DNA of 29,368 nt, from positions 1 to 29,368 of the forward strand of contig CAIXEV010000627.1 of the NCBI GenBank assembly GCA_903918555.1. The letters are read 5' to 3'. This DNA is from an uncultured bacterium. GTDB lineage: Bacteria; Planctomycetota; Phycisphaerae; Phycisphaerales; SM1A02. The notes beneath the pieces were generated by a model. It was given only the letters and a program-made list of their open reading frames with translations. It was not told the DNA's origin and did not search any database. The position numbers and the translations under genes were made by a program. Shown piece after piece: positions 21,001 through 29,368 of this stretch; position 1 is the first letter of the stretch; every line of letters begins with the position of its first letter.

Positions 21001-24000
21001 GGAGTACTACTCCTATGCCGCGACGACCACGTCGATCGACGATGTCCTGACCGGTCTGAAGACCACGATCGGCACGACGAACTACGCGGTGACCGCCGAC
21101 GCCACCAGCGGCACGCTGACCGTGGTGCGCAACAGCGCCGGCGCGCTGACGATGAGCGTGGACCGCGGCACGGCGAAGGATATCTCGTCGTGGGCTGCCT
21201 CGATTTCGGTGGGCGGCACCGGCATCGCGGATGGCGATACGGTGACCGTACGCGTGGCCTACGGGTCCGGTCCGACGACCAAGGACTACGCCGTGACGGT
21301 GAGCGGGATTACTGTCGACATGACGGACGTACAACGGCAGCAGACCGTCGCCGGACTCATCGCCACTGCGATCAATACCGACTCCCCGGCACTCTTCTAC
21401 GCCGATGTCGAATCCGGCAGCGCGGTGGTGAACGTCTTCAGCGCGGCCAAGGTCGACGCGACCACGGCGATCGTGTCTGTGACGAAGCAGGCTGGCGCCG
21501 CATCGATCACCCTCGCGCCGGTGACGAACGCCACTCAGTCGGTGCAGGTGACCGGCACCGCCGCAGCGGGCAAGGTCTGGACCATCGGCCTGCCGAACCC
21601 GACCGCTGGCACGGACTACTACAGCTTCGCCGCTACCACCGCGAACCTCGCGGACGTGGTCACCGGCCTGGTCGCGGCGATCAATGCCAGCACCGTCACC
21701 TCGGGCTTCTCGGCGGTGGATTCGTCGCATAACGGAGCGACCGTGCCGTCGCTCACGATCACCCGGAGCAGCGCGATCGCGTTCACGGCCTCGGTGGCGA
21801 ACCCGGCGGCGAGCCTGGCGGATTCGTCGGGCTGGACCGAGACGCTGAAGCTTTCCGGGACGGTCGCGACGAACACCGCCTGGGTCCTGTCGGCGAAGAG
21901 CGGCACGACCTACGCGACGTTCGGTTACGCGGCGACGAGTTCCGACACCACGCTCGCAAGCGTGGCGTCCGGGCTCGCCGGCGCCGTCACGGGGGCGAAC
22001 TACCGCGCGCTGGACACCGGCAACGACACGGTCACGCTGTTCCGGATCGACAGAGCGACGACCACCGTATCGACGACAGCACCGGTCGCGACGCTGGTCG
22101 ACGCCGCCGCCTGGACCGAAACCCTCCGGCTGGCCGGCACGCCGACCGAGGGCATGGTCTACGCGGTGGGCACCAAGGACGCCGTCCCCACGCCAGCGTA
22201 CGAAACATACAGCGTGGTCGCGGGTTCGACCCCCGACCTGGCGACCCTCACGACAGCGCTGGCGACTGCGCTGGATGCCTCCGCAACCTACGATGCGATC
22301 GCGACCGGCAACAACACCATCACGATCCTGCGCGGCGCTGACACGAACGCCTTCAGCGCGCTGACCACGCTCGGGGCGAACCCGTCCGATGCAGCCGCCT
22401 GGTCCAAGGCGGTGCAGGTCTCGGGCACCGTGGCCACCGGCAAGATCTACACCGTCGCGCTGACGACGGCATCCGGAGCGCCGACCTACTTCAACTACAC
22501 CGCGAGCGCGACCGACACGCTGGACTCCGTGACGACTGCGCTGTCCGGGCTGATCGACGCCAGCAGCGGTTACGCCACCCTGGTCACCGGCGCCTCCGGC
22601 AGCAAGGTGATCCACGTGCTGCAGCAAGGCGGCATCACCGGCATCACGTCGTCGACCAGCCTCGCTGCCCCGGCCACGGACGCCGCCGCCTACGCCGAGA
22701 CCGTCGAGGTCGGCGACACGGTCGGCGGCACGGTGGTGGCGCGTGAGACCTGGAACATCACCCTCACGCCATCGAGTGGCTCGCCCGTCACCTTCAGCTA
22801 CGTGGCCGGGTCCGGAGCGGATATCGCGGACGCGCAGACCGTCGCCCAGCGCCTCGCCGCGCAGATCCATGCGAACGTTTCGTACAACGCCACCGCCTTC
22901 CAGACCGCCGCCGGCACCTGGGTGGTGGCGATCAGCGCGCAGGGCGGGACGGGCGGATTCACTGCGACCCAGAGCGTGTCGGCAGCCGCGCCTCTGGTAC
23001 GACCGACCCTTGGCGGCGAGGCGAAGGTCGCGTGGACGCAGCAGGTCACGCTTGCCGATGGCGCCGGCTTAGATGACGTCTGGACGGTGCGCCTCGATGG
23101 CACCAGCGGCCTCAGCAACTATCAGCTCACCGGCAGCACCGACACCAGCGCGACGGCCGCCGCGGCGCTCGCCGGCTCGACCGGTTACGTGGACCTGGGT
23201 ACCACCGGCAACGTCGCGAAGTTCCGGCAGGTCAACTCGAACTTCGTCACGATCGGGCAACGCACCTGGATCGATCGCCTGGCGCCGACCGCGACGACCG
23301 CCCCCGCTGCAGACAGCGTCGCCGCGTCGGCACGGCTCACCGAGTACAACTTCACGCTCGCCGGCAAGGTCAGTGTCGGCGATGTCTGGGCCATCAAGCT
23401 CAACGGTATCGAGTACAAGTACACCGCCGCCGCAGGCAACAACCTCAACGCCGTCTCGATCGGACTGCGCGCGGCCATCAACGCCGGCGGGCTGTTCACG
23501 GCCGCGGGCAGCGGTGCGGACATCAAGGTCACCATCAAGCCAGGTGCCTGGTTCACCGGCTTCACGCAGAACCTGTCCCAGGGCGGCGGCAAGGTCAGGG
23601 CAGTGCTGGATATCGACCGCACCCGCGTCATGCAGGGGGTCCAGACCTTCCTGCAGACGAACTATGTCCCGGTGTACTACTTTGGGTTCTTTGGTGGGTA
23701 TCAAGTCGTCACCACCGCCGTCAACGTCAGCTACATCGACACGCCGGTCGTGACGCTGAGGGACGCGTCTGGCAATGTCGTCTTGCCGGTGAGCACGAAC
23801 GCAGGCGCGACCACGCCGGATGCGGGCAGTACCCTGCTTACCGACCCGCTGCAGACCTACGAACTGTCCGCCGCTGGCACCTACACGGTCGAGGTCATGG
23901 CCTCCCGTCAGTATCTTCAGGCGAATCCCTTCGCGAGCAACGGACTGGTGGGTATCGCCAGCGGGCAGCCGTACGCCCTCAACGTGTCGCTCCAGCGCCA

Positions 24001-27000
24001 TGCGGTCAACGAGGATGCGATCAACCTCGTCGGCAAGCAGGTGACGCTGACCACCGGCACCAACCGCGGCACCACCGCGCGCATCCTCGCCTACGACGCA
24101 CCGAGCAAGACCTACACGCTTGACCGGGATACGACCGTCGGCAGCGGCAACCGCTTCGACATCCAGTACGACATCACCTCGGAGTACCCGGCCTACGCGG
24201 CGAGTTCCGACACCTTCCAGGTCGTGCTGACCCGGGCGCCGACCGCGAATGTCACGCTCGACGTGACGCCGCAGGTTACCGCGACCTACAACTCAGACCT
24301 GGCCTTCTCGGCACGTGACAACTACGGCCAGACCGAGGGCATCCAGGTTGACACGGCCACCCCGCAGGCGAAGATCGAACTGACCGGAACCCCGGTCGCG
24401 GATCAGGTCTGGCGCCTCGCGCTGGGCGGCGTGAACTACGACTACACCGCATCGGCTGCGCCGACGCTGGCGAGCGTGGCCACCGGCCTGAAGGGCGTGA
24501 TCGACGCCGCCAACGCGGGCTATACCGTCACCGTCGCCAGCGGCACGCTCACCGTGAGCCGCTACGCGGGCGATGGCGCCGCGTTCACCGCGCTGCTGTC
24601 GATCCTGCCGTACTCCGAGGGCAGCGTCGCGATCACGCAGCTCGCCGCGACGCCCTGGAAGGCGGCGCTCGCGTTTGCCGGTCCGGTGCGGCAGGGCGAG
24701 GAGTGGAAGGTCAGGCTCAACGACGTCGACTACGCCTATACCGTGCAGTATGGCGACGACCTGGGCGCGGTAACGCTAGGGCTGTTCGAGCAGCTCAAGG
24801 CAGTGACGAGCCTGCGTGTCTCGCTCACCGGCCTGGAACTCACCGTCGCCACTGCCGATCGCACGACGCTGCTCGCCGCCAGCTACACGATCAAGGCCGC
24901 CGGGACGCCCGCGGTGGTGCTGCCTGCGGCGACCGCCGGCGCGACCGTGACCTCCCAGCTCGTCTTCTCGAGCGACGCGTTGCACGGGAACGGTTGGAAC
25001 AAGCAGCAGACGGTCACGGTCACCGCGCGTGACGATCGCATCCTCGAGGGGCACGACCTCAAGGTATTCCCGGCGATGGGCGAGCGGATCAACACCATCC
25101 GCGGTCCGCTGTTCATCGACGGCGGTGCGCAGTACTCGGATGCGAACGCCCTGAACGAGCCGTTCATGACGGCGGGCGAGACCAACCTGGTCCGGCCGAA
25201 CAGCACGATCGCCGCCTTCGGCACCACGACAGCGACGATCAACGGGCAGGCGACCACGGTAGCGACGCTGACCGATACGCGGATCACGCACGTCGATGCG
25301 GCGCGCGGCGAGATGCCGGGTCTCGATCCGCGCATGAACGATTACGCGTACCAGATCACGGTGATCAATTCGCCGGGCGTGGGCACGCCGATGGATCTGC
25401 TGCTGGGTGGTCTGAAGGGCGACACGCTGGCGGTGAAGGCCGAGGATGGCACCAGCACGCTGCAGGTGGTGTCGTTCAACGGCCCGGCGGGTGCCTCGGT
25501 CTCGGTGAAGGGCCGCGGCGACGCCGGCACGCTGTACTCGAAGGCGGATATCGTCCTCAAGGGCGACGTGTTCAAGGACAGCGTCTGGGAACTCAATGTC
25601 GGCGGCACTGCGTTCTCGTACACCGCGGGCAGCCGGCCGGGGGGCGCGACGGCGGACGACGCGCTCACGCTCGATATCGTCGCGCTGCGCCTGGGCAACG
25701 AGATCGCGGCGGCGGGGTTCACGGTCGTGCGCACCGGCTTCCTGCTCGAGATCAGCCGCGCAGCGTCCTTTGCCGCGAGCTTCACGCCGGGCAAGGGCAA
25801 CGCGACGATCCTCGGGACCCCGGCCAGCGACACCGGCGTCAGCTGGGCGGTGGCCGAGGTGAAGTTCGCGATGACCCAGCCGATCACGGCCGGCCAGGTC
25901 TGGAGCGTCACCCTGCTCAAGTCGGGCGGTGCCGAAACGAACCAGACCTACACCTACACGGCGCGTACCGGCGACGACCTGACGGCGGTCATCCTGGGCC
26001 TTGCCGACCAGATCGACATCAGCTCGCGTTACCACTCGGACATCAAGTACGAAACCGCCACGTTCACCACGAACTGGCCGGCGAGTCCCGCGGTGGCCAA
26101 CGGGCTGGGCTACTACATCACCCCGCTCAACCGCAACTTCCTGGCGGTCGAGGCGGACCAGGTCGACGTGCTCAATCTTTTCAACCGCGCGAGCGTCTCG
26201 GACGACGCGGGCGTGCTGACCGACTCGCGCCTCACCGGCTTTGGGATGGGCGGCGACACGGTGGTCGCCGGCAAGGCGGTTAAGGGTGGCATCAGCTACC
26301 AGGGGCTCGAGCAGCTGAACCTGATGCTGGGGTCCGGCAACGACCGGCTGACCGTCGAGTCGACGCATCTGGGCTCGACCACGATCACCAGCGCCGGCGG
26401 CAACGACACCATCACGATCAAGACGGTTGCCGGCCACACCTTCGTGGATACGGGCGCAGGCAGCGACGTGGTGAACGTCGGCAGCGACCTGAACGTGGTC
26501 GACCAGATTACCGGCTTGCTGGTGATCAGCCAGGGCGGCGACGGTGCCGGCGATGTGCTCAACGTGGTCGATTCCGGCGATGAGAACGCCAATACGGCGA
26601 CCCTGACCCAGAGCACGCTGACCGGTCTGGACATGCCCACGGTCGCGGAGGTCCAGACCATCCGGGTGCAGGCGAAGGAGGGCACGTTCCGCCTCGGCCT
26701 CGCGCCTGAACTGTATGTACCTGGCGCGCCGTACGGCGAGGCACAGACCATCACCTACGACAAGTCCGGTAGCGGCGCCGGCGTGTCTGACATCCAGACG
26801 AAGCTGCGCGTCCTGTATGGCACTTCCGACCTGATCGTGACCGAGGTCGGCCGCGAAATCGCGGCGGGAGAGACCGACGCGCGAGCGATCACCTACGCCC
26901 TTACCTTCACCGGTGCGAAGGCCGGCGTCGACATGCCGAAGGTCGTGTGGGCGGAGGCGCGCGCCGCGATCGACGTGTCGGCGCAGAAGCCACTCACCAA

Positions 27001-29368
27001 CCTCCTTGCCTACGACAGTGCGTCGGTCGACGTGAATGTCGTCACCAAGCGCGAGGGCTCGGTCACGCCGACGGTTGGCAACGTGCAGACCTTCGCGGTC
27101 GACGCCACCGGTGGCACATTCCGGCTGACGGTCAACGTGCCGCAGCCCGGCAGCACCACGGTGCTTGCCCAGACCACCGCGGCCATCGCCTGGAATGCCA
27201 CGGCCGAGCAGATCCGCACGGCGCTCGATCCGATCCTGAACCCGAACGGGTCGATCCTCGATCCGTTCAATCCGCGCAACGACAATTCCAGGCCGTACAC
27301 CAACAACGTGGCGGTGACCCGCGCGGGCAACGTGGTGACCCTCGCCTTCCAGGGCGAGCACCGCGGCAAGGCGGTGACGGCGGTCGACACCACGGCGCTG
27401 ACCGGCGGCGCGGCGACCATCGACGTGGCGACGCGCACGAGCGGCATCAACTACTACGGCGTCGGCACGCTGAACATCACGTTGGGTTCGGGCGACGACC
27501 TCTTCAATGTCCAGGGCACCAGCGCGGTCACCAACCTGAACACGAAGGGCGGCGCGGACCGGATCTACGTCTCGTCGACCGCGGACGTGAACGCGTTCAC
27601 CGGGTCGAGCGGTTTCATGGCCGGCAACGTGGTGAGTTTCAGCGGCGATGATCGTCCGGTACTCCAGTTCGAACTCGCCGAGTCAGCCACTTCGGTCAGC
27701 ATCGAAATCCGCAACGCTGCGGGTACGGTGGTGCGTACCGTGGCGCTGGGCGCCTCGGCCGCCGGCAACCATCTGCCGGCCTGGGACGGCAAGGACACTG
27801 CCGGCAACGTGGTGGCCGCGGGCGCCTACAGCTACAGCGTCACCGCGACCCGCGCCGACGCCTCGACGTTCGCCGGCACGACGGCGATGCGCGGCACGCT
27901 CGACCGCGTGACCGGTACGCTCAACATCGACGCCGGCAGCGGCATCAACGCGCTGATGGTGAGCGATGCAGGCTCCCGCACCGCCGACACGGCGGTGCTC
28001 GTTACCAGGGACCGCATCAGTGGCCTCGCACCGGCGGTCGTCAATTACGTCACCACCGGCACGGATACCGACGGCAACGGCGGCACCTACGCCGGCGGCA
28101 TCACGATCTGGAGTGGCTACGCCGCGGATACGGTCACGGTCACCAGCACGCGCCGGGACAGCGGGCCCCTCGTGGGCGACCTTGCCGTGCGCACCGTGAC
28201 GTCGCTCAATACCGGCCTCGGGGACGACCGCGTCACGGTATCGCTGTCCGCCGCTACCGACGGGTTCTTCGCGGTCAATACCCAGGGTCCGTTCGACCAC
28301 GATTACCTCGGCACCGCGCGCACCGACGACGACACGGTCGTGGGGTCGGGCTCGTCGCTGCCGCTGATCGTGTTCGGCGGCCAGGGCAAGGACGACATCA
28401 CCGGCGGCAGCGGCGACGACATCCTGTTCGGGGATCGCGGCCGGGTCGAGTACAAGAACGCGTCTGGCACTGCGGTCCAGGTGCTGGGTTGGGGCGGCCT
28501 GGGCGACATGACCGACGGCCTCGCCCGCATCGTCAGCGTGGCGCGCACGGCCGACATCGCGGTCGGCGGCAACGACTTCCTGCTGGCCGGTGAGGGCAAC
28601 AACATCGTCTTCGGCGGTGCCAACGGCGGCGGGGCGCTCGCCAACGCGGCGGCGGCGGGATTCATTGGCGATTACCTGCAGACCGGCGCGGGATCGGACA
28701 TCCTGTTTGGCGACAACGGCACCGTCGAGTTCGTGCTGCCCGGCCTGCCAGGCGCCGGCAAAGCGCTGCGCTACCAGACCACGGACACCCTCGCCGCCAC
28801 GGGTGGCAACGACAAGCTGCTCGCCGGCGCCGGCACGAACACCATCCTTGGCGGGATGGGGGCTGACACCATCGTCTCCACCGACGCCACCGGTACTCAC
28901 GTCGATACGATCCTCGGTGATAACGGTCTCGTCGAGATGGATGCGCAGGGCGGCAACTACGCACTGGTGCGCACCTTGTCGCGGGCCTCGGCGGGCGGCT
29001 CGCTCGTCGACCTTGGCGGTAATGACCAGATCACGGTCAGCGGCAACCGCGCGGCTGTGGTCGTTCTGGGCGGAGACGGCACCGACACGATCGACATCCT
29101 GGGCGCGGGCAACCGGACGATCCTGGGCGACAACGGGATCGTGACCTACGTGGCGCTGGGCCAGGTTGGCGCAGGCCGAGCGTTGAAGTACGAGACGACG
29201 GACACGCTGCTGTCGACGAGCGCGGGCGGCACGGCGGGTGCGGACACGATCACGGTGACCGGAGACGGCGACAACACCGTGCTGGGCGGCCTGGGTGGCG
29301 ACACGATCGCGCTGAAGAACGGCCGCGACACGGTGCTGGGCGACAACGGCATCGTGCAGATGGATGCC
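2..29368 (+). CDS. Giant secreted repetitive RTX-type adhesin/surface protein, internal fragment of at least 9,789 aa (5'- and 3'-partial)
   Basis: Hand translation of frame +2 begins IGAAVTLALNDVRGGAKATIDR..., ends ...VLGDNGIVQMDA, and showed no stop. The ORF track lists + strand ORFs only in the other two frames, although frame +2 has ATGs from nt 632 onward, which fits no in-frame stop. GC-rich third positions, coherent protein repeats throughout, many GGxGxD motifs. Confidence 0.96.
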   Translation, partial: MGAAVTLALNDVRGGAKATIDRTTLTADGNVVVSATEAASLTAELSTDLVATTRPSIKPGTSLAVNASIATNTVLSGASAAITDSAVTTTSGGSVDVSASNTAEISATIAASTTSSGVSVGVTLAFNTIGWQSQNFLFNTLDALLGTGIGTAQPDETVAFIKNTTVAADGGISVTTDYAASIDASIESASVTLKGNVNGGTAVSVGAVIAMNKIASRTQAYVEGGATISASGDISISATDDSTIDARSAAASTSVAASVTASTSVSIGVSVARNEIENDLTAFIRNAGQVTATDGSVTVSAEQNAGIDATSTASSVTVAVAAGGGKAFGGGGATAVNYIRGKSNAFIEGGSVSATGTSAGMGDVAITADNTSSIHAEVAAVSVSAALGSGSSPAASIGFSLARNFIGWDSSGGSSVATTYTSSQNPTTLSTGQTVRIQGGTRAGDIYEYVGPTLTDGDPNTAGNQPIDLDIQNFHDKGAWKQVNLNASALEVQAYIKNASVTAADALTLDADSNSNIDAVVRAGSAALSGGGATGLAVSGAGVYAENRIKTYVKSYIDGDGTTGISARSVSLTADDASGIDAIAGASSLAGAIGGTTGAAVSIGLSIAFNEVSNEVEAYVLNADQGVSATAGSVTIAATSQGPHLFDLTLVGSLTTANLDDAAKADQDDPGTTGANEAKTDLAADMTFLGQLRTAMNTGLTGVGRAALAIADTVAAESMYTTGSGSRDLREGTTVKLAAGYSAGGVAGRVYRYVGADANNVNLGTQNYATTANWVLVDKLRLSTLVEGESWSLLAPDGTSYLLEKSGSLLKVSKNTINVVSSAASLSAGFGGTTGVAISGAGAVAQNVVLTRTNAFGQNSILRSSDDVALSAASTTTISSGVAAASLALGGGGTTGVGVSIGIAVAQNLIGWTPNASTSTPAQVQAYLKDTAVQAGGDLTQSAVARQTVNSVVLAGSAALAAGGTTGVGVSGSGVYAENKIGVDVKSYIDGDRSSGTAGVSADSVTLSASDKSIINAQAGASSLAASLGGTAGVAVSVGISLARNTITSAVEAYIKNADGTAASATDNGVTATAGGISLSASEAATINATSSAASLAAGIGGTAGIAVSGAGADAANVILTRTNAYAQGSTLSSTGNVALGATNTATIDAKVVSAAFSAALGGTAGVGASIGVALARNFIGKQLNGTSAPAEVQAYLADTSVSAGGSLALTATSNQTISTKVLAGSVALAGGGTFGGALAGAGASATNDIAVKVKAYIDGDGASGISATGITLTARDTSSISATVGAASIAASVGGTAGISAAVGVALARNTIANQVEAVIRNADTGVTATAGAIVLDADQVATITASSGAAALGAAVGGVAGIAISGAGAEATNVILNKVNAHVDASRLTASGAVTLTADDASTILAQVIAASASISVGGTAGIGASIGVALARNLIGRQLDGTSAPAEVQAYLVDSSVSAGGVLALTATSNQNISTTVLAGSVALAGGGTFGGALAGAGASATNDIAVKVKAYIDGDGASGISASGITLTARDTSSISATVGAASIAASVGGVAGISAAVGVALARNTIANQVEAAIKNADTGVTATAGAIVLDADQVATITASSGAAALGAAVGGVVGGIAISGAGAEATNVILNQVNAHVDASRLTTSGAVTLTADDASTILAQVIAASASIAVGATAGIGASIGASRSRNLIGWKLDGTRQEAQVQAYVLDSSIAAGGDLQMKATARETINANVLTGSVAVAGGTVGVAASGAGSETENRIATLVKAFIDGDGATGISARDITLTADDLSTIGASAGSASVAAGFGAAGVAVSVGLGLARNEISNVVDAYIRNADGAPGNANDGVVTHSEGSIRIEAINAATITTTALAASAAVGGGLVGVGFSGAGADARNSILTKTRAYVEDSDLVADDGDTTRTERVTISARDTSTITAQVLGLSAAVGGGLVGGAVSIGSSTARNFIGWTLAGTESPAEVLAFAKNARIAAADALSISATESATISAKVDAASVALAGGAVAIAASGAGADVQNKVSTKVQAYVDGSRGAGVVAGTGGLTISAQDTSTITAQAFAASVSGSVGLVGGSAAIGVALTSNSIGNDVRAFVRSATVSTTGNMTVQAIESASITAVSQAAAVSASAGLSVSLSGGGASASANVTTATRAFVESSTVTVTGDLVINAQVVATAVARVDATAASFGLISAAAAGSVVSATVNPTVEARLSGSTVSARDVTVSASAQPKADVQASGFAVSSGVSVGVSRADVTLAPVVTATAGGTMTANSLSVSARHLLPASGKSANAYAAASTGGLLIGVSATIARASNSAQVVAAIANSSNLNITGNVSVAASNSTRQDAEATAVAGGVLAAGVADSRTTSNTSNTATLGTNVTLTASSLSIGATGHDANYATTTAGSGGVAAGASAKAATSGTSNTLASIGASSNVNLSLRGTGELSLSAEHTAALNTLQITSAGGVIAGAGVSVDNEVISAVDATIGASATVLAREIDLSATNNVDKPTFADIPNPNPLLGLFIPTVSVPNVKGSTGGLASGAGISSDFRITLNTNVTVGASANVQTVGVITDDTLIRMRAFNSIVAQDKVSFLSGGAVAGASADAKIRTLADVARVTIGDGVTLLSKGALELSARGTGNVVQKISVDVFGAGTLVKGESRIDINPLNEVTIGSAAITAYGDLKISAGRDTDFNSDRYRLEARYDGLAGSLVPIDSVDGKAFLIQENRINIGTGAHLRTAGQAKLHAERDSINDLTAKAKITSWTSAIGDGLLALTGGGADQYNGHLLQEAHGTVTNNGTVETGITRRVMLSLNSWNAQAGTVTGTPSDGVTFTTSQEIQNSTLGTDLANAKDLLAKYGSIDAKLQAYYSSEVTRIQQEMLAKKLGFFQSDGVTFTPVTSYVMTVTVDPIRAQAGRIDVRGDQLVGESNGRWIAPTDASVTITNNTPAFLNLKGITIPDEVGRLFFNGGLVGTNAAIKAENQRNVDDDNSRSSAYADTTAQTPVIPTFGLLPTDATSGFAEPTITVTNALDVDDVTDGNTYVQPNITVLGPSRGGVGISNLSGNVIINFGGGAFVAQGAVTAKNLIVTGTGNVYIDGVAQFALGEPSSVWGGVTYGTTGGVTASGVINANVNPANVANLLAQGPTATGSMIARQIFIRANIINVNGLIQSGKDAYELNLDANAANEVRTKLNQGFGGTFKLDQTSAATGGDFNVWFNTATQSFEVRDVTVAGGSVTLEGKIVNTGNGKIRVLSGYGQIKVLNTTAYGVEVRKLDAAQRGQGTLVIIDKAKPSGGNPHTATTYQRNGVVGNETYAPSADMRYGWAVSWGTRTVEKIHRESSNWLGLVNLGSFDETGKTVENIAAPALEGGAGYYYSETNSSLQNATYNYSQATFQTNSTDPEAQWREVRHEVRSSWYGKKTYITDYQKRVDNKTVARHDISAHRNIAIEFFGGAEASVVVSSTSSRDVVIGSILNTSGTTTVSSGGAIRMAGADGAIGGRRVVLTALAGIGTDQRAVTTNVTDSSTSSLYAVTTNGNVNIVERSDDLAIDQVKATAGGNVSIVVPENLLVAATYEGLVQGSRINIDTSGGATSQGGGVGNSTTAPLVVESGNQLKDTVTVNANGNVFLKEKTGNLHLKQIDAGGGTVWVNVAAGGLIDANNSQTVDERIRSELEGGLWSELGLTENTGANQKVLDAIAGFKTTKETEYRTYWKYRGQQANPAVYDETFNVNLSADDEAYYRDVLGYDSPAITTLKNKLTQEYGDLHTRYGSYGNSFNAAFSYTLTSAEDTALRGSIRIWTAEELLFSMSGGVLKATADTVSVLEDPNIKGTDVTIITSQGIGNTTGKVVIDIATVQASGLTSEERIAFSAADRPDITYIVGNIVGSSASPVRFNFTQGASDTITRLDGGNFITDGFSVGRKVYVEGISLNATAKGVFYEVASVTASTITLTTGVRLVATEASMVAVLSPVIADPTGQFASVLKIGIDQRDDVNLKASGNVNVTAGTNIYLGTLDGFKVQAVTAADAVRIKAKDDIVNAASSGANITSSDLILESGQGGIGTSAKSFSVLLSSSGGLQGTLTARALKDVYISSAVTLKIAGVQSQNAGVYLTAGGSIVDGLSSDAPKLAGSVISLSAAVDIGASANWLETDLTATGTLTATAGGSIWLREVANNMNVDRITSTGGDVNLRAHQSIVDASTATGEPASKPGIDVKAKANINLASDFGAIGISGNDLDIDSDTSATDGVTGTLTISSFLGANLIEVAGDLAVDTITAGAGYTAFIAAPDGRILNGRASGSNVVSGKAFLFAKNDIGTSAKAFLTQVGNLEGQSTLGSAYITNTGAMTVGGVTASAVGMNVKGAVTLTTLSPIAVVSSIRSEGDITLTATDAAGDGDTLDVGYDGSGNPVSGVEIESTGGRVLLVSGDRFRLGASALLRAGTVEIRTDDSATSGLDGGGSIAIYGTIDAAETILAGGADNDVFMITVSATRAGSTTFVRGGLGADLIHVGSNATPTTNTGGTVNGIAQRLAIDGEGGSDVVIVDETGETVATSLVSDRETLGGAPYGRLTGLAAGNILYRSAEIIDVNLGAGDDTAQIKATESGTTMTLRTGTGNDTVTAGSTTADATSTVNDLSGALVVDAQGGAADVLRINDSGDAAANTGTLTATTLTGLGTAGITYTNVETLNLDLGGGGDAFTIASTHANRTNLRSQGGVDGILVQTVAGRTTIDTGLAADLITVGDATHDLAGIVGQLDIAGGGQTGDTLNVDARVATSALTGRTYTVGLVAGTAGVSGLGMTIGLNYTGIDAFNLTLGKGGDNLFVEGTNTATHVIDAYLGDDVINIGSISGVTRVYGDRITDASGATEKGFGGKDRIRVNYGQDGRQTFANGVAALLTVGGGEDDDLIEIGLSGKLSNPTTTPPQSRIKVESASAYPTDPGSDRLNVYGTNDSDLFLFRPGAIIALQTDANGDRVAGGGVERIDYATVSGGITVFGRDGDDTFAMDSTSSALTVYGDAGADRFQVGQIFKSPRDADAGLVGEDRFATTLTTRGYLSDGVNFDAFLYGGAGNDTFTIYRNKANVFLYGEEDDDTFTVRAFVAVDPNDPLKPITNINGGKGKDLITYTVNAPVNIDGGDGSDTLIVVGTEFADKIVVTDAGVYGAGLFVTYTSLENIVVDGLEGNDQFFIASTPAGATVSTIGGKGSDTFNVAGNVTAEPIDVVSNDLLGHSGIIDLAIPSANTTDAGYQNRFIGDISASVMDNESAGIALTMLGGVLRVFEGNSSSTLTRSRYSVVLTRAPQEDVRVTASPATIRQADALAGGKGIALNGSEAGTTLRFDRTNWFIPQIIEVTAPADTLAEGRRAINIQHTVVQGADLGDGGEYDSLALPSPVVEVFDDDAAGVVITPASNGQVIVNQDSSVSVGSDANAYYVSLARQPTGDVEINLAVQPDDNGVAQVYTDAQVYPAGVYAGIPHLSFNTTNWATPQTVKVTAKPDPTGVLQGTQFVRIQHSVAAESVNNFYGLSLDDVARGLAAKVAGDLTGQYTATATGTTVTITGKAAFTATSPDSRVTVVGAESAYSVAHITPAGAVAAGDRYTLSVNGRQSVYVAGANGDELTLAAVAQGIKAAYDASALAGVTASIASAGTVTFTGQTSVIPAFTARLVQSNASTATVTGTTVDGRFGKVTVTVAEEVKKDELWTLKLGDSTYRYVAGKNGEMTALPSIDVTLTDKDSAGVLVTQSGGDTRVIEPTDLVLLGAAEVTGTATPGQGLSIASADAVRLEVLIAEAPTATSVSSGRATVSGTQVWTQADITLSGTVVAGNTWSVRIEGRNYAYVAKDTDTTLAHIATGLMTVLTAPTTAPTPGLGGSYAVSLPEGSSGVVAVSKATGFTVQVLSGNGALTGTSAWRNPVIALSGTPGNSETWTVRVNGTNYSYATPATGAVTLSMVADGIKTALTSGGTPAFASAAVTKVALTQFIANFGASEINEAAGRKDSIFTAQSLEVDVWNRQPNANILNADTRPHVTVRGTGDGTTDVYKFVVTNEMLATGSVTATFDIDKGLDYFDSIFWASQLNLYNSSGALIARGLGYSNPSDPSKGAGGSTTWLDDFLTYTFTTAGTYFVEITNWIPLGTNSNGIPKGADYELQVSIDRHKTAEFVLEAAPVLKQGDTVQNVDAAGNWYTFLDPTIGNGTDIGSSTPYVKISALGDDTVDRYSFVVSAANLSQAGGTSGTTVGETPARTYYTSADVQLTGRVKAGDVWTVRLSGLDYTYTVSAADVTAETGASGAGLANIASGLAAKITARTTTNTDGVADITQGATYSAAVSADPKTLRITDPNGFWFALDHQIDDAAVVLREGAVQGNSTLPLTRADVVFSGTVTVGDVWTVTLNGTPYVYTTTTASLDDVAAGLDTAIGTVAGVSVAASGSTLGFTATGSNSFTLAVKESGQTADGVAKFTNVATRAAYQQADVALSGTVTAGNTWTLSLRDQADIATDYTFTATTTSLADVAAGLVSTLNTTKPGTATYAATQYGQVVRITDAGTGKFFTASIASSGTGSGTVNGIAVQTAAQDVKWTNAALALTGTFRAGDTYAVTVNAGTASAYTATYVAGAAGTAGTTGTTTTYAATLEGVALALRDAINNMAPAGKTYAATASGTTLTIADPAGVTLTYGVTGAASAGTLASANAWTKSLAFANPVAGDAGRTYTVAVDNVYFNATADATPTAAEILAALSTAINANASYAATYDTDATRGSGVLTIAKKDRSAIVARLEQGSVSTPSAAVADAAKVVTIGTPTADQVHTLILKETSSGTVRAFTYHADASPTAAEVATGLAAAVNAGSATHKFAVSRSADVADTLLITNTDGLAFTADTTRGSTSVVSGTSAYTYRLSGTVTAGEVYSVTLVPASGSASVFAFEAATTAIDDVLAGLAAAVNTAGSGYTATARTASDTLTIVNNAGATFSVSTTRGTAAADAGAASARLSGAVSIGDVFTVALKRGASTEYYSYAATTTSIDDVLTGLKTTIGTTNYAVTADATSGTLTVVRNSAGALTMSVDRGTAKDISSWAASISVGGTGIADGDTVTVRVAYGSGPTTKDYAVTVSGITVDMTDVQRQQTVAGLIATAINTDSPALFYADVESGSAVVNVFSAAKVDATTAIVSVTKQAGAASITLAPVTNATQSVQVTGTAAAGKVWTIGLPNPTAGTDYYSFAATTANLADVVTGLVAAINASTVTSGFSAVDSSHNGATVPSLTITRSSAIAFTASVANPAASLADSSGWTETLKLSGTVATNTAWVLSAKSGTTYATFGYAATSSDTTLASVASGLAGAVTGANYRALDTGNDTVTLFRIDRATTTVSTTAPVATLVDAAAWTETLRLAGTPTEGMVYAVGTKDAVPTPAYETYSVVAGSTPDLATLTTALATALDASATYDAIATGNNTITILRGADTNAFSALTTLGANPSDAAAWSKAVQVSGTVATGKIYTVALTTASGAPTYFNYTASATDTLDSVTTALSGLIDASSGYATLVTGASGSKVIHVLQQGGITGITSSTSLAAPATDAAAYAETVEVGDTVGGTVVARETWNITLTPSSGSPVTFSYVAGSGADIADAQTVAQRLAAQIHANVSYNATAFQTAAGTWVVAISAQGGTGGFTATQSVSAAAPLVRPTLGGEAKVAWTQQVTLADGAGLDDVWTVRLDGTSGLSNYQLTGSTDTSATAAAALAGSTGYVDLGTTGNVAKFRQVNSNFVTIGQRTWIDRLAPTATTAPAADSVAASARLTEYNFTLAGKVSVGDVWAIKLNGIEYKYTAAAGNNLNAVSIGLRAAINAGGLFTAAGSGADIKVTIKPGAWFTGFTQNLSQGGGKVRAVLDIDRTRVMQGVQTFLQTNYVPVYYFGFFGGYQVVTTAVNVSYIDTPVVTLRDASGNVVLPVSTNAGATTPDAGSTLLTDPLQTYELSAAGTYTVEVMASRQYLQANPFASNGLVGIASGQPYALNVSLQRHAVNEDAINLVGKQVTLTTGTNRGTTARILAYDAPSKTYTLDRDTTVGSGNRFDIQYDITSEYPAYAASSDTFQVVLTRAPTANVTLDVTPQVTATYNSDLAFSARDNYGQTEGIQVDTATPQAKIELTGTPVADQVWRLALGGVNYDYTASAAPTLASVATGLKGVIDAANAGYTVTVASGTLTVSRYAGDGAAFTALLSILPYSEGSVAITQLAATPWKAALAFAGPVRQGEEWKVRLNDVDYAYTVQYGDDLGAVTLGLFEQLKAVTSLRVSLTGLELTVATADRTTLLAASYTIKAAGTPAVVLPAATAGATVTSQLVFSSDALHGNGWNKQQTVTVTARDDRILEGHDLKVFPAMGERINTIRGPLFIDGGAQYSDANALNEPFMTAGETNLVRPNSTIAAFGTTTATINGQATTVATLTDTRITHVDAARGEMPGLDPRMNDYAYQITVINSPGVGTPMDLLLGGLKGDTLAVKAEDGTSTLQVVSFNGPAGASVSVKGRGDAGTLYSKADIVLKGDVFKDSVWELNVGGTAFSYTAGSRPGGATADDALTLDIVALRLGNEIAAAGFTVVRTGFLLEISRAASFAASFTPGKGNATILGTPASDTGVSWAVAEVKFAMTQPITAGQVWSVTLLKSGGAETNQTYTYTARTGDDLTAVILGLADQIDISSRYHSDIKYETATFTTNWPASPAVANGLGYYITPLNRNFLAVEADQVDVLNLFNRASVSDDAGVLTDSRLTGFGMGGDTVVAGKAVKGGISYQGLEQLNLMLGSGNDRLTVESTHLGSTTITSAGGNDTITIKTVAGHTFVDTGAGSDVVNVGSDLNVVDQITGLLVISQGGDGAGDVLNVVDSGDENANTATLTQSTLTGLDMPTVAEVQTIRVQAKEGTFRLGLAPELYVPGAPYGEAQTITYDKSGSGAGVSDIQTKLRVLYGTSDLIVTEVGREIAAGETDARAITYALTFTGAKAGVDMPKVVWAEARAAIDVSAQKPLTNLLAYDSASVDVNVVTKREGSVTPTVGNVQTFAVDATGGTFRLTVNVPQPGSTTVLAQTTAAIAWNATAEQIRTALDPILNPNGSILDPFNPRNDNSRPYTNNVAVTRAGNVVTLAFQGEHRGKAVTAVDTTALTGGAATIDVATRTSGINYYGVGTLNITLGSGDDLFNVQGTSAVTNLNTKGGADRIYVSSTADVNAFTGSSGFMAGNVVSFSGDDRPVLQFELAESATSVSIEIRNAAGTVVRTVALGASAAGNHLPAWDGKDTAGNVVAAGAYSYSVTATRADASTFAGTTAMRGTLDRVTGTLNIDAGSGINALMVSDAGSRTADTAVLVTRDRISGLAPAVVNYVTTGTDTDGNGGTYAGGITIWSGYAADTVTVTSTRRDSGPLVGDLAVRTVTSLNTGLGDDRVTVSLSAATDGFFAVNTQGPFDHDYLGTARTDDDTVVGSGSSLPLIVFGGQGKDDITGGSGDDILFGDRGRVEYKNASGTAVQVLGWGGLGDMTDGLARIVSVARTADIAVGGNDFLLAGEGNNIVFGGANGGGALANAAAAGFIGDYLQTGAGSDILFGDNGTVEFVLPGLPGAGKALRYQTTDTLAATGGNDKLLAGAGTNTILGGMGADTIVSTDATGTHVDTILGDNGLVEMDAQGGNYALVRTLSRASAGGSLVDLGGNDQITVSGNRAAVVVLGGDGTDTIDILGAGNRTILGDNGIVTYVALGQVGAGRALKYETTDTLLSTSAGGTAGADTITVTGDGDNTVLGGLGGDTIALKNGRDTVLGDNGIVQMDA
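1259..1450 (+). other. Small aromatic insert module 1 (Y...G.TV.I..G..AG.IYEYVG...IDL..QNF.D...W)
   Basis: Translation YTSSQNPTTLSTGQTVRIQGGTRAGDIYEYVGPT...IDLDIQNFHDKGAWKQV interrupts a beta-helix unit and is paralogous to 2159-2332. Confidence 0.7.
2159..2332 (+). other. Small aromatic insert module 2
   Basis: YTTGSGSRDLREGTTVKLAAGYSAGGVAGRVYRYVGADANNVNLGTQNYATTANWVLV has the same Y/G/YVG/L/W pattern as module 1. Confidence 0.7.
3557..5075 (+). repeat. Near-identical in-frame tandem duplication with a 774/777-nt period
   Basis: Long shared DNA stretches, e.g. gccggctcggtggccctggccggcggcggcaccttcggcggcgcactcgccggcgcaggtgccagcgcgaccaacgacatcgc, occur near 3671 and 4445. Copy 2 has one extra codon (GVAG vs GVVGG). 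Boundaries are approximate. Confidence 0.92.
8500..8706 (+). repeat. Perfect 21-nt direct repeat gagcgacggcgtcaccttcac (8500-8520 and 8686-8706)
   Basis: Read directly from the sequence. Both copies encode SDGVTFT, lie 186 nt apart and flank a helical-looking segment. Confidence 0.9.
10380..13400 (+). repeat. Haemagglutinin-like beta-helix repeats, second type
   Basis: Recurring IG...(L/F).(V/T)D....L.A.(A/G)(G/N).I.(L/I).E..G.(L/M).(V/I)..I.(A/S).GG.V.L.A..SIVD, e.g. DIGASANWLETDLTATGTLTATAGGSIWLREVANNMNVDRITSTGGDVNLRAHQSIVD. Confidence 0.7.
13425..15634 (+). repeat. RTX-like glycine/aspartate (Ca2+-binding type) beta-roll region 1
   Basis: GGADND, GGLGAD, GEGGSD, GAGDD, GTGND, GGAGNDTFTI, GEEDDDTF, GGKGKD, GGDGSDTL, GLEGND, GGKGSDTFNV. 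The GGxGxDxxx nonapeptide is the hallmark of type I secretion substrates. Confidence 0.85.
15779..16195 (+). other. Calx-beta/cadherin-like Ig-fold domain 1 (intact)
   Basis: DNESAGI...YSVVLTRAPQEDVRV...LRFDRTNWFIPQIIEVTAPADTLAEG...IQHTV...YDSLALPSPVVEVFDDD. The L.F...NW..PQ.V.V.A.DD...EG pattern is typical of Calx-beta-related domains. Assigned by eye. Confidence 0.65.
16190..17197 (+). other. Calx-beta-like domain 2, split by a 196-aa insert (16571-17158)
   Basis: YYVSLARQPTGDVEI...LSFNTTNWATPQTVKVTA...IQHSV...FYGL, then the insert, then ALPSIDVTLTDKD. This aligns with YDSL-ALPSPVVEVFDDD of domain 1. Confidence 0.65.
17954..18457 (+). other. PPC-like (pre-peptidase C-terminal type) beta-sandwich domain 1 (intact)
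   Basis: EINE...DSIFTAQSL...PHVTVRGTGDGTTDVYKF...ATFDID...SQLNLYNSSGALIA...GSTTWLDDFLTYTFTTAGTYFVEI...DYELQVSIDRH. The D.Y.F / DID / L.L...G / D.....F..AGTY.V / Y.L.V pattern fits PPC-type domains. Confidence 0.65.
18503..24001 (+). other. PPC-like domain 2, split into 18503-18685 and 23570-24001
   Basis: N-half: QNVDAAGNWY...PYVKISALGDDTVDRYSFVVS. C-half: RAVLDID...DTPVVTLRDASGNVV...GSTLLTDPLQTYELSAAGTYTVEV...YALNVSLQRH. Together they are collinear with domain 1. Confidence 0.7.
26636..27442 (+). other. Two 'EVQ'-type domains inserted in a beta-roll unit
   Basis: AEVQTIRVQAKEGTFRLGL...DIQTKLRVLYG...YALTFTG and GNVQTFAVDATGGTFRLTV...TTAAIAWNATAEQIRTAL...VTLAFQG. They sit between LTGLDM and GINYYG, which are adjacent in other units. 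Confidence 0.65.
27623..27895 (+). other. FlgD (flagellar hook-cap) Ig-like domain embedded in the giant protein
   Basis: GNVVSFSGDDRPVLQFELAESATSVSIEIRNAAGTVVRTVALGASAAGNHLPAWDGKDTAGNVVAAGAYSYSVTA matches the FlgD_ig signature F.L...A..V.I.I....G.VVRT..LG...AG.....WDG.D..G.....G.Y...V.A. Confidence 0.8.
28420..29368 (+). repeat. '(I/V)(L/F)GD(N/R)G' RTX-associated repeats, ~70-aa period, running off the window end
   Basis: The GD(N/R)G Gly codon lies at 28430, 28709, 28916, 29126 and 29339. Two subtypes alternate: GAG(K/R)AL(R/K)Y(Q/E)TTDTL and GDNG(L/I)V(E/Q)MDA. Confidence 0.85.

What the first reader, a model, noticed from the sequence alone, without database searches (positions are those of the whole stretch)
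27623..27895. FlgD-like flagellar hook-cap domain inserted mid-chain in an RTX-type protein
Seen: a strong FlgD_ig signature (VVRT..LG...AG....WDGKD.AG..V.AG.Y) sits between RIYVSSTAD...GFMAG and MRGTLDRVTGTLNIDAG, i.e. in the loop where other units have only a few residues. Established: FlgD caps the growing hook, and FlgD_ig-like domains also occur in non-flagellar secreted proteins, often near the C-terminus. Inference: the flanks (GNVVSF before, G(T)LDRV after) also resemble FlgD's neighbouring strands, which suggests capture from a genuine flgD gene.
Basis: partly seen in the sequence, partly recalled or inferred. Interest (0 to 1): 0.65.

Follow-up and report, generated by a model that had tools for sequence, protein, structure and literature searches.

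The report
FlgD-type domain nested in giant adhesin
A complete copy of the small beta-sandwich domain known from the flagellar hook-cap protein FlgD sits inside one loop of a giant secreted RTX-type protein. This is a real, old and conserved example of the known "split-domain" design of bacterial adhesins, and the domain did not come from the host's own flgD.

Summary
Nt 27623-27895 (aa 9208-9298 of one open frame of at least 9,789 aa) encode a full-length FlgD_ig domain (PF13860, 77-81 bits, E about 1e-21).

- **Insertion.** The domain interrupts a beta-roll-like scaffold unit. Related giants show a clean presence/absence pattern: mostly 15 residues without it, and 103-116, 194, 280 or 367 residues with 1, 2, 3 or 4 tandem copies.
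- **History.** Insert-bearing proteins form one clade on the scaffold tree (98/98). They occur in Verrucomicrobiota, Beta- and Gammaproteobacteria and this Planctomycetota-like bin, so the insertion was old and the gene then moved between phyla.
- **Structure.** The predicted fold matches FlgD crystal structures (Z 12-14.7, rmsd 1.3-2.0 Å).
- **Origin.** This is only partly resolved. The insert scores on the genuine-FlgD side of FlgD and non-flagellar profiles (18 of 18 copies). The trees are unresolved and AU tests reject neither placement.
- **What fails.** No Tudor or FlgD N-terminal part was captured. The "G(T)LDRV" flank belongs to the scaffold. The host's FlgD has no Ig domain.

Closest known design: passenger domains budding from split domains of RTX adhesins. 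FlgD_ig would be a passenger type not mentioned in the two split-domain papers I text-searched. Function is inferred, not shown.


The parts
2..29368 (+). Single open frame of at least 9,789 aa (fragment of a giant secreted protein; both ends lie outside the contig)
   Evidence: no stop in frame +2. Homologues of 5,500-14,390 aa.
27437..27622 (+). N-terminal half of the split scaffold unit (aa 9146-9207, TSGINYYG...VSSTADVNAFTGSSGFMA). The last ~16 aa (nt 27575-27622) form a low-confidence linker.
   Evidence: Conserved in homologues with and without the insert. AF2 pLDDT is 83-88 for the rungs and below 50 for model residues 72-78 and 81-85.
27623..27859 (+). FlgD_ig core as delimited by Pfam PF13860 (aa 9208-9286)
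   Evidence: 77-81 bits, model positions 1-79 of 79.
27623..27895 (+). Whole nested domain (aa 9208-9298, 91 aa), including the last strand TFAGTTAMRG
   Evidence: These are exactly the residues missing from insert-less homologues. AF2 model residues 84-174 have pLDDT about 77-89. FlgD structures align over model 83/84-172 with Z 12-14.7.
27896..28036 (+). C-terminal half of the split scaffold unit (aa 9299-9345, TLDRVTGTLNIDAGSG...ISGLAPA)
   Evidence: Contiguous with the N-half in 26 insert-less homologues. pLDDT 84-93.
28373..29368 (+). RTX-type GGxGxD nonapeptide repeats running off the contig end (best Pfam stretch nt 28781-28873)
   Evidence: PF00353 at 24.1-27.9 bits against a cut-off of 23. 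Sequence read.

Best explanation
A complete FlgD-type fibronectin-III/Ig-like domain (91 aa) is nested in one inter-rung loop of a calcium-binding beta-roll-like scaffold unit. The unit lies about 500 aa from the end of the window, in the C-terminal region of a giant RTX-adhesin-like protein that is probably exported by a type I system.

Shown:
- The scaffold unit is contiguous in many relatives and is interrupted here at one precise point.
- The insertion is shared by one subfamily of these giants, consistent with one old gain. One insert-less member, from Mariprofundus, falls inside that clade.
- The domain then multiplied in place by tandem duplication to 2-4 copies in some members. The window has one copy and its nearest relative has three.
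- The gene family is spread across several phyla.
- Only the Ig domain is present, without FlgD's N-terminal or Tudor parts.
- In sequence and predicted fold it is of the flagellar-FlgD type.
- It cannot come from this host lineage's flgD, which has no Ig domain.

Inferred:
- As with the passenger domains that bud from 'split domains' in RTX adhesins, the domain projects sideways from the solenoid in the cell-distal, ligand-binding part of the fibre. There it would serve as a binding or spacing module whose reach or valency changes with copy number.
- In FlgD the same domain is itself an insert in the Tudor domain, so it may be well suited to loop insertion.
For: - Domain identity.
- Clean presence/absence with conserved junctions.
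- Scaffold tree: the 14 insert-bearing rows plus Mariprofundus form one clade at 98/98, and the insert state needs 2 changes.
- All insert domains are monophyletic (SH-aLRT 99). The extra tandem copies are nested inside that clade and match each other by position between proteins.
- Fold: AF2 model with mean pLDDT 76. The top 17 Foldseek hits are FlgD structures (3osv rmsd 1.3 Å over 86 columns). VIA-align gives Z 12-14.7 for FlgD, against 8.2 or less for anything else, and Z 7.5 for the scaffold against a CyaA RTX block.
- FlgD-likeness. In genome scans, 68 of 71 matches in 151 Pseudomonadota genomes and the top 28 matches in 81 Desulfobacterota genomes lie in FlgD-sized frames.
- Not the host's flgD.
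- RTX repeats.
- An ABC transporter and three HlyD-family genes lie directly downstream of the Sulfuritalea homologue.
- Independent lake-water assemblies reproduce the arrangement.
- The split-domain principle is described in PMC12077191, PMC10865825 and bioRxiv 10.1101/2025.09.30.679566.
Against: - No experiment bears on function.
- I could not inspect model coordinates, so 'projects sideways with adjacent termini' is inferred from the sequence topology and from FlgD's known nested architecture.
- The N-terminus, the extreme C-terminus and the neighbouring genes lie outside the contig. Retention module, T1SS signal and export genes are therefore untested for this copy.
- Pfam finds no Ig-like extender array in the 9,789 aa, so the protein is not a textbook Lap-type adhesin.
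- Host assignment is uncertain. The contig is the second-strongest tetranucleotide outlier of the bin. The 24 congeners searched lack the segment. The closest relative sits on a 1.3-kb contig binned as Actinomycetota.
- A single gain needs one secondary loss (Mariprofundus).
Confidence: 0.7

Rival explanations
1. One reading: the Ig domain alone was cut out of a genuine flgD gene of some bacterium, long ago, and inserted into the scaffold loop. This concerns origin only and is compatible with the main explanation.
For: - The insert profile scores genuine FlgD far above non-flagellar domains.
- All 18 inserts fall on the FlgD side of a cross-validated two-profile test.
- The best pairwise hit is a Desulfobacterota FlgD: 43% identity over all 91 aa, 79 bits. 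The best non-flagellar hit scores 59 bits over 86 aa.
- Inserts share with FlgD the N-terminal 'GN.V' strand and the G...aG loop, which the non-flagellar consensus lacks.
- LG+G4 trees put the inserts beside or among FlgD.
- FlgD structures stand well above all other folds.
Against: - The inserts are never nested within FlgD with support.
- The tree with all FlgD held as one clade excluding the inserts has a higher likelihood than the free tree (p-AU 0.60).
- The C20 mixture model places the inserts with non-flagellar domains, though with 17/0 support.
- No Tudor or N-terminal remnant is present.
- The inserts' margin (+13 bits) lies between those of the two classes. This would also fit a slowly evolving non-flagellar lineage.
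- FlgD sampling covered mainly Pseudomonadota and Desulfobacterota-like sequences.
- The PDB search turned up no non-flagellar FlgD_ig structures, so the fold search cannot discriminate.
Confidence: 0.4
2. The domain was shuffled in from another non-flagellar secreted protein carrying (tandem) FlgD_ig domains. Its FlgD-likeness reflects slow divergence from the family's common ancestor.
For: - FlgD_ig is abundant in large multi-copy surface proteins: 6,175 library hits, and nearly all of the 150 top-ranked proteins are 370-6,600 aa with several copies.
- The mixture-model tree groups the inserts with such domains.
- 'F one clade' is not rejected.
- Some non-flagellar domains reach 42-51% identity to the insert over 61-86 aa.
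- The inserts themselves form tandem arrays like those proteins.
Against: - Every profile-based comparison puts the inserts nearer to genuine FlgD.
- Within Desulfobacterota, FlgD-sized frames outscore large multi-copy proteins: up to 76.7 bits against 44 or less. In the one genome with both (G474) the FlgD scores 53.2 against 44.1.
- The grouping with non-flagellar domains has no bootstrap support (17/0).
Confidence: 0.35
3. Capture from the host's own flgD, which is the reader's literal suggestion to compare with the host gene.
For: The host is flagellated. It has six flagellin N-domain hits and an flgD-flgE locus.
Against: - The host FlgD is 149 aa, with PF03963 plus a weak Tudor hit and no FlgD_ig.
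- All 120 listed relatives (Planctomycetota/Phycisphaerae names) carry only PF03963.
- In 81 genomes of the host phylum, no FlgD-sized frame has FlgD_ig.
- The insertion predates the spread of the gene across phyla.
Confidence: 0.02
4. Assembly chimera or chance similarity.
For: The bin is a fragmented metagenome assembly (731 contigs, 82% complete).
Against: - E about 1e-21 over the full model.
- The same junctions occur in 14 homologues from independent projects.
- Three other studies' contigs span the region colinearly.
Confidence: 0.01

Closest known systems
Fibronectin-III/Ig-like domain of the flagellar hook-cap protein FlgD (PDB 3OSV, 3C12, 7EH9/7EHA/7BHQ, 4ZZF)
   Same: Same Pfam family over its full length. 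29-34% identity to the Pseudomonas, Xanthomonas and Salmonella structures. Predicted fold superposes at rmsd 1.3-2.0 Å over 85-90 residues, Z 12-14.7. In FlgD the domain is also a nested insert, inside the Tudor-like domain (my knowledge of the published FlgD structures).
   Different: No FlgD N-terminal region and no Tudor domain. It lies in a protein of more than 9,789 aa with RTX repeats, not in a ~150-260-aa protein of a flagellar operon. It occurs as 1-4 tandem copies.
Split-domain / passenger-domain design of RTX adhesins (Aeromonas hydrophila AhLap, Vibrio cholerae FrhA; PMC12077191, PMC10865825, bioRxiv 10.1101/2025.09.30.679566)
   Same: A small folded domain emerges from an interrupted host domain near the C-terminal RTX region. 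Beta-roll domains are documented as split hosts. The host unit is intact in relatives that lack the passenger.
   Different: The passenger is a FlgD_ig domain, which gets zero text matches in the two split-domain papers I text-searched. Its copy number in the loop varies from 0 to 4. No Pfam-detectable Ig extender array or retention module is seen in the window. Carriers are environmental Verrucomicrobiota, Proteobacteria and a Planctomycetota-like bin, not the studied pathogens.
Non-flagellar multi-copy FlgD_ig proteins ('FlgD immunoglobulin-like domain containing protein' in NCBI annotation)
   Same: Same Pfam family, secreted or surface context, tandem arrays. NCBI already names two relatives of this giant that way.
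   Different: Those domains score lower against the insert profile (mean 34.6 bits, against 46-63 for FlgD). They fall on the other side of the two-profile test. There they are beads on a string, not a loop insert.

Membership tests
Pfam FlgD_ig (PF13860) | Score above the gathering threshold over the whole model | tested here: met
   76.9-80.7 bits against 27, model positions 1-79 of 79.
Pfam FlgD_ig (PF13860) | Beta-sandwich fold of the FlgD Fn-III-like domain | tested here: met
   On a predicted model only. FlgD structures give Z 12-14.7 and rmsd 1.3-2.0 Å; the next fold gives Z 8.2.
Genuine FlgD hook-cap protein | N-terminal FlgD region (PF03963) upstream of the Ig domain | tested here: not met
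   No PF03963 hit anywhere in the 9,789 aa. The host's real FlgD is elsewhere, on contig C474.
Genuine FlgD hook-cap protein | Tudor-like domain (PF13861) wrapped around the Ig domain | tested here: not met
   No hit on the 137-aa segment with flanks, even at E<=10. The flanks are scaffold sequence shared with insert-less homologues.
Genuine FlgD hook-cap protein | Small protein (~150-400 aa) in a flagellar gene cluster | tested here: not met
   The domain lies at aa 9208 of an open frame of at least 9,789 aa.
RTX adhesin with split-domain passengers | C-terminal RTX nonapeptide beta-roll | tested here: met
   PF00353 at 24-28 bits against a cut-off of 23, at aa 9594-9624, with visible GGxGxD repeats to the contig end.
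RTX adhesin with split-domain passengers | Passenger domain interrupts a host domain that is contiguous in relatives | tested here: met
   The spacing between anchors is 15 aa in 22 of 26 insert-less homologues, against 103-367 aa with 1-4 Ig copies.
RTX adhesin with split-domain passengers | Type I secretion signal and adjacent ABC/MFP export genes | tested here: inconclusive
   The 3' end and neighbouring genes are outside the contig. In the Sulfuritalea homologue, an ABC transporter and three HlyD-family genes lie directly downstream.
RTX adhesin with split-domain passengers | N-terminal retention module | not testable with these tools
   The 5' end of the gene lies outside the window.
RTX adhesin with split-domain passengers | Long array of Ig-like extender domains | tested here: inconclusive
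   Pfam reports no Big or cadherin-type family in the 9,789 aa. Divergent extenders often escape Pfam, and I did not model them.
T9SS C-terminal sorting domain (CHU_C / Por_Secre_tail clan) | Score above the cut-off and position at the extreme C-terminus | tested here: not met
   CHU_C scores 16-18 bits against a cut-off of 27. The domain is mid-chain, followed by about 490 more residues in the window.

The most novel reading that the evidence does not exclude
The domain was taken from a flagellar hook-cap gene and still uses FlgD's interaction surface. The giant fibre could then bind flagellar axial proteins (hooks or rods) of neighbouring cells, or self-associate like the FlgD cap. Copy number (0-4) would tune avidity, and the whole gene would move between phyla.
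Probability: 0.06. Interest if true: 0.65.

Novelty: new member of a known kind. Interest (0 to 1): 0.35.

Why it matters
- It adds a passenger type, a flagellar-type FlgD Ig domain, to the split-domain design that is used to locate ligand-binding modules in RTX adhesins.
- It gives a clean natural series (0, 1, 2, 3 and 4 copies in the same loop) for testing how nested domains are tolerated in proteins thought to be exported unfolded, C-terminus first.
- It shows a giant adhesin gene family shared by Verrucomicrobiota, Proteobacteria and a Planctomycetota-like lake bacterium.
- It is also a caution for annotation. A 'FlgD immunoglobulin-like domain containing protein' label on such fragments says nothing about flagella.
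- It is not a surprise at the level of mechanism.

Tried and rejected
I therefore could not read the gene neighbourhoods of P0002-P0005 or P0014. I used the search for related loci and the fetch from genomes instead.
- No Tudor-like signal in the flanks at E<=10.
- No flanking direct repeat at the junctions. The only long repeat (15 nt, 27620 and 27800) encodes AGNVV twice, once at the start of the domain and once inside it. A 9-nt match at 27575/27900 is out of frame and unremarkable in 68%-GC DNA.
- No orthologue of aa 9008-9498 in the 24 congeners or 16 same-order genomes searched. This is absence in those searched only.
- Three ML trees of the ~91-column domain gave conflicting, unsupported backbones. 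AU tests rejected neither constraint. I did not test 'insert nested in a named FlgD subclade'.
- TIGR01843 (type I HlyD) hits near the giants were below the cut-off. Pfam on the Sulfuritalea locus gave HlyD-family and ABC genes.
- Contigs laid on the region showed no copy-number variant or joint. Contigs drop rare variants, so this says nothing about minor forms.
- The CHU_C and DUF2271 hits are sub-threshold clan cross-matches.
- I did not run complex prediction, because no binding claim is made.

Full report
**1. Observation**

The 29,368-nt window is a whole contig (C627) of a 3.3-Mb, 731-contig, 82%-complete metagenome bin. It is filled by one stop-free frame of 9,789 codons, open at both ends.

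Pfam finds exactly one FlgD_ig domain in it. The hit covers model positions 1-79 of 79 at nt 27623-27859, with 77-81 bits against a cut-off of 27 and E about 1e-21. It is the only FlgD_ig match in the whole assembly. RTX nonapeptide repeats (PF00353) follow from about aa 9458 to the contig end.

**2. It is an insertion in a loop**

Paralogous scaffold units in the same protein (aa 4561-4700, 4661-4800, 8741-8890) have 3-10 residues where this unit has about 105.

The giant has homologues of 5,500-14,390 aa. Five of the first ten homologous proteins carry the insert. The other five read straight through as 'VSSxAxxxxGTx-TDFLxGHLDxxxGxLNID'.

Over 40 homologous segments from proteins and genome loci, I measured the spacing between the two flanking anchors:

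| Ig copies | Spacing (aa) | Where |
|---|---|---|
| 0 | 15 in 22 of 26 (range 2-20) | insert-less homologues |
| 1 | 103-116 | window and others |
| 2 | 194 | Sulfuritalea L017 |
| 3 | 280 | P0014, the window's closest relative at 78-80% identity |
| 4 | 367 | L018 |

**3. History**

A tree of the flanks alone puts all 14 insert-bearing rows, plus the insert-less Mariprofundus sp. EBB-1 protein, in one clade (98/98) against 25 insert-less rows. The insert state needs two changes, for example one gain and one loss.

The carriers are binned as Verrucomicrobiota, Beta- and Gammaproteobacteria, an 'Actinomycetota' 1.3-kb fragment, and this bin. Insert-less relatives occur in at least eight phyla.

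All insert domains are monophyletic (SH-aLRT 99). The extra tandem copies form a subclade inside them and match each other by position between proteins. They therefore arose by duplication in place. The window lineage, with one copy, either lost the extras or never gained them.

Near-identical sequence is present in lake-water metagenomes of eight studies. Contigs from three further studies span nt 27200-28300 colinearly, with 11-18 substitutions and no indel.

**4. Where did the domain come from?**

*Not the host's flgD.*
- The host has flagellar genes.
- Its FlgD (L002, 149 aa) has only PF03963 and a weak Tudor hit.
- Its 120 listed relatives, named Planctomycetota, Phycisphaera or Phycisphaerales, carry only PF03963.
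- In 81 genomes of the host phylum, FlgD_ig occurs only in open frames of roughly 500-3,700 aa or contig-end fragments, never in FlgD-sized frames, at 44 bits or less.
- The bin assignment itself is shaky. The contig is the second-strongest tetranucleotide outlier, and the 24 congeners searched lack the segment.

*Not a whole-gene or Tudor capture.*

*But the domain is of the FlgD type.*
- A profile of the inserts scores 206 genuine FlgD domains at 46-63 bits on average (max 83.8). It scores 991 non-flagellar domains at 34.6 bits on average (max 63.8). The gap holds when the terminal strands are removed.
- In a cross-validated test of a FlgD profile against a non-flagellar profile, held-out FlgD gives +28.3 bits (55 of 55 positive). 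Held-out non-flagellar domains give -18.1 (21 of 22 negative). The inserts give +13.4 (18 of 18 positive; the window copy scores 85.4 against 68.6).
- In evenly drawn genomes, 68 of 71 matches in 151 Pseudomonadota, and the top 28 matches in 81 Desulfobacterota, lie in FlgD-sized frames, at up to 76.7 bits over the whole profile.
- In 101 Verrucomicrobiota genomes, only large proteins match, at 52.5 bits or less.
- The best pairwise hit is a Desulfobacterota FlgD, at 43% identity over 91 aa.

*Phylogeny does not settle it.* With about 91 columns the backbone has no support.
- LG+G4 trees put the inserts beside or among FlgD.
- The C20 mixture tree puts them with non-flagellar domains, at 17/0 support.
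- AU tests reject neither 'all FlgD one clade' (p 0.60; the constrained tree is 4 log-likelihood units better than the free one) nor 'inserts + FlgD one clade' (p 0.47).

I read this as three groups whose root is unknown. Derivation from some ancient flgD gets odds of about 0.4, and derivation from a conservative non-flagellar lineage about 0.35.

**5. Structure**

An AlphaFold2 model of aa 9125-9424, built on a 20-row alignment, has mean pLDDT 76. Confidence is about 77-89 for the insert (model residues 84-174), 84-93 for the re-joined scaffold, and below 50 for the 16-aa linker before the insert.
- The top 17 Foldseek hits are FlgD structures (3OSV at rmsd 1.3 Å over 86 columns; 3C12; 7EHA; 4ZZF).
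- VIA-align gives Z 12-14.7 for FlgD. The next best are Z 8.2 for an unrelated Fn-III-like domain and Z 7.5 for the scaffold against a CyaA RTX block.
- These searches turned up no non-flagellar FlgD_ig structures, so they confirm the fold but not the origin.

**6. How it most likely works**

The arrangement fits the published 'split domain' principle of RTX adhesins. Ligand-binding domains bud out of interrupted Ig-like, beta-roll, vWFA or CBM domains in the region just before the C-terminal RTX/T1SS module, with their N- and C-termini adjacent (PMC12077191; bioRxiv 10.1101/2025.09.30.679566). FlgD gets no text match in either of those two papers.

The Sulfuritalea homologue is followed on the same strand by three HlyD-family genes, a SecA-like gene and an ABC transporter. 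This is consistent with type I export for the family.

I infer that the FlgD-type domain is a sideways-projecting surface module, for binding or spacing, in the distal part of the fibre. Copy number would modulate its reach or valency. Neither the geometry nor any ligand was tested.

**7. Verdict**

Relatives are already auto-annotated as 'FlgD immunoglobulin-like domain containing protein', and the design is known. This is a new member of a known kind, of moderate interest.

Noticed in passing
L187:6740-8734 (-) = G045:C11, downstream of the Sulfuritalea giant: A 664-aa SecA-like ATPase (SecA_DEAD, PP-bind, P-loop) sits inside the cluster of three HlyD-family genes and an ABC transporter that follows the giant gene. 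That is an unusual companion for a type I export locus.
   Followed up: no
L187:10906-12756 (-): The HlyD-family membrane-fusion protein directly after the giant gene carries an N-terminal GAF domain. This suggests small-molecule control of export.
   Followed up: no
P0131, P0174-P0187 (390-410 aa): These are genuine FlgD proteins with a duplicated module. P0131 has two FlgD_ig stretches and a Tudor hit in two pieces. The others have matching lengths and the same Pfam families. Relatives are named Desulfobacterota. They are among the FlgDs most similar to the insert.
   Followed up: partly
L002:461-907 (host contig C474): The host's FlgD is only 149 aa, without an Ig domain. No FlgD-sized frame with FlgD_ig was found in 81 genomes of the host phylum. 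Short Ig-less FlgD seems to be the rule in Planctomycetota-like genomes.
   Followed up: partly
window 1-29368 (contig C627): This is the longest contig of the bin and its second-strongest tetranucleotide outlier. Its GC (0.677) is within 1 SD of the bin. The 24 congeneric genomes searched have no orthologue of aa 9008-9498. The closest relative, P0014, is on a 1.3-kb contig binned as Actinomycetota. Host assignment of this giant gene is therefore uncertain.
   Followed up: partly
L032 (Mariprofundus sp. EBB-1, NZ_RCFQ01000023.1): The only locus whose record title marks a pure culture carries an insert-less protein that branches inside the insert-bearing clade (91/83 with the L015/P0005 group). 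This implies either a secondary loss or a second gain elsewhere.
   Followed up: no
window 27620-27634 and 27800-27814: An identical 15-nt string GCCGGCAACGTGGTG encodes AGNVV twice, once at the start of the insert and once in its WDGKDTAGNVV loop.
   Followed up: partly
window 6674-16750 (-) and other long antisense frames: Very long spurious-looking ORFs lie on the opposite strand (3,358 aa, 1,599 aa). This is typical of 68%-GC repeat-protein DNA. They overlap the frame that has real homologues.
   Followed up: no
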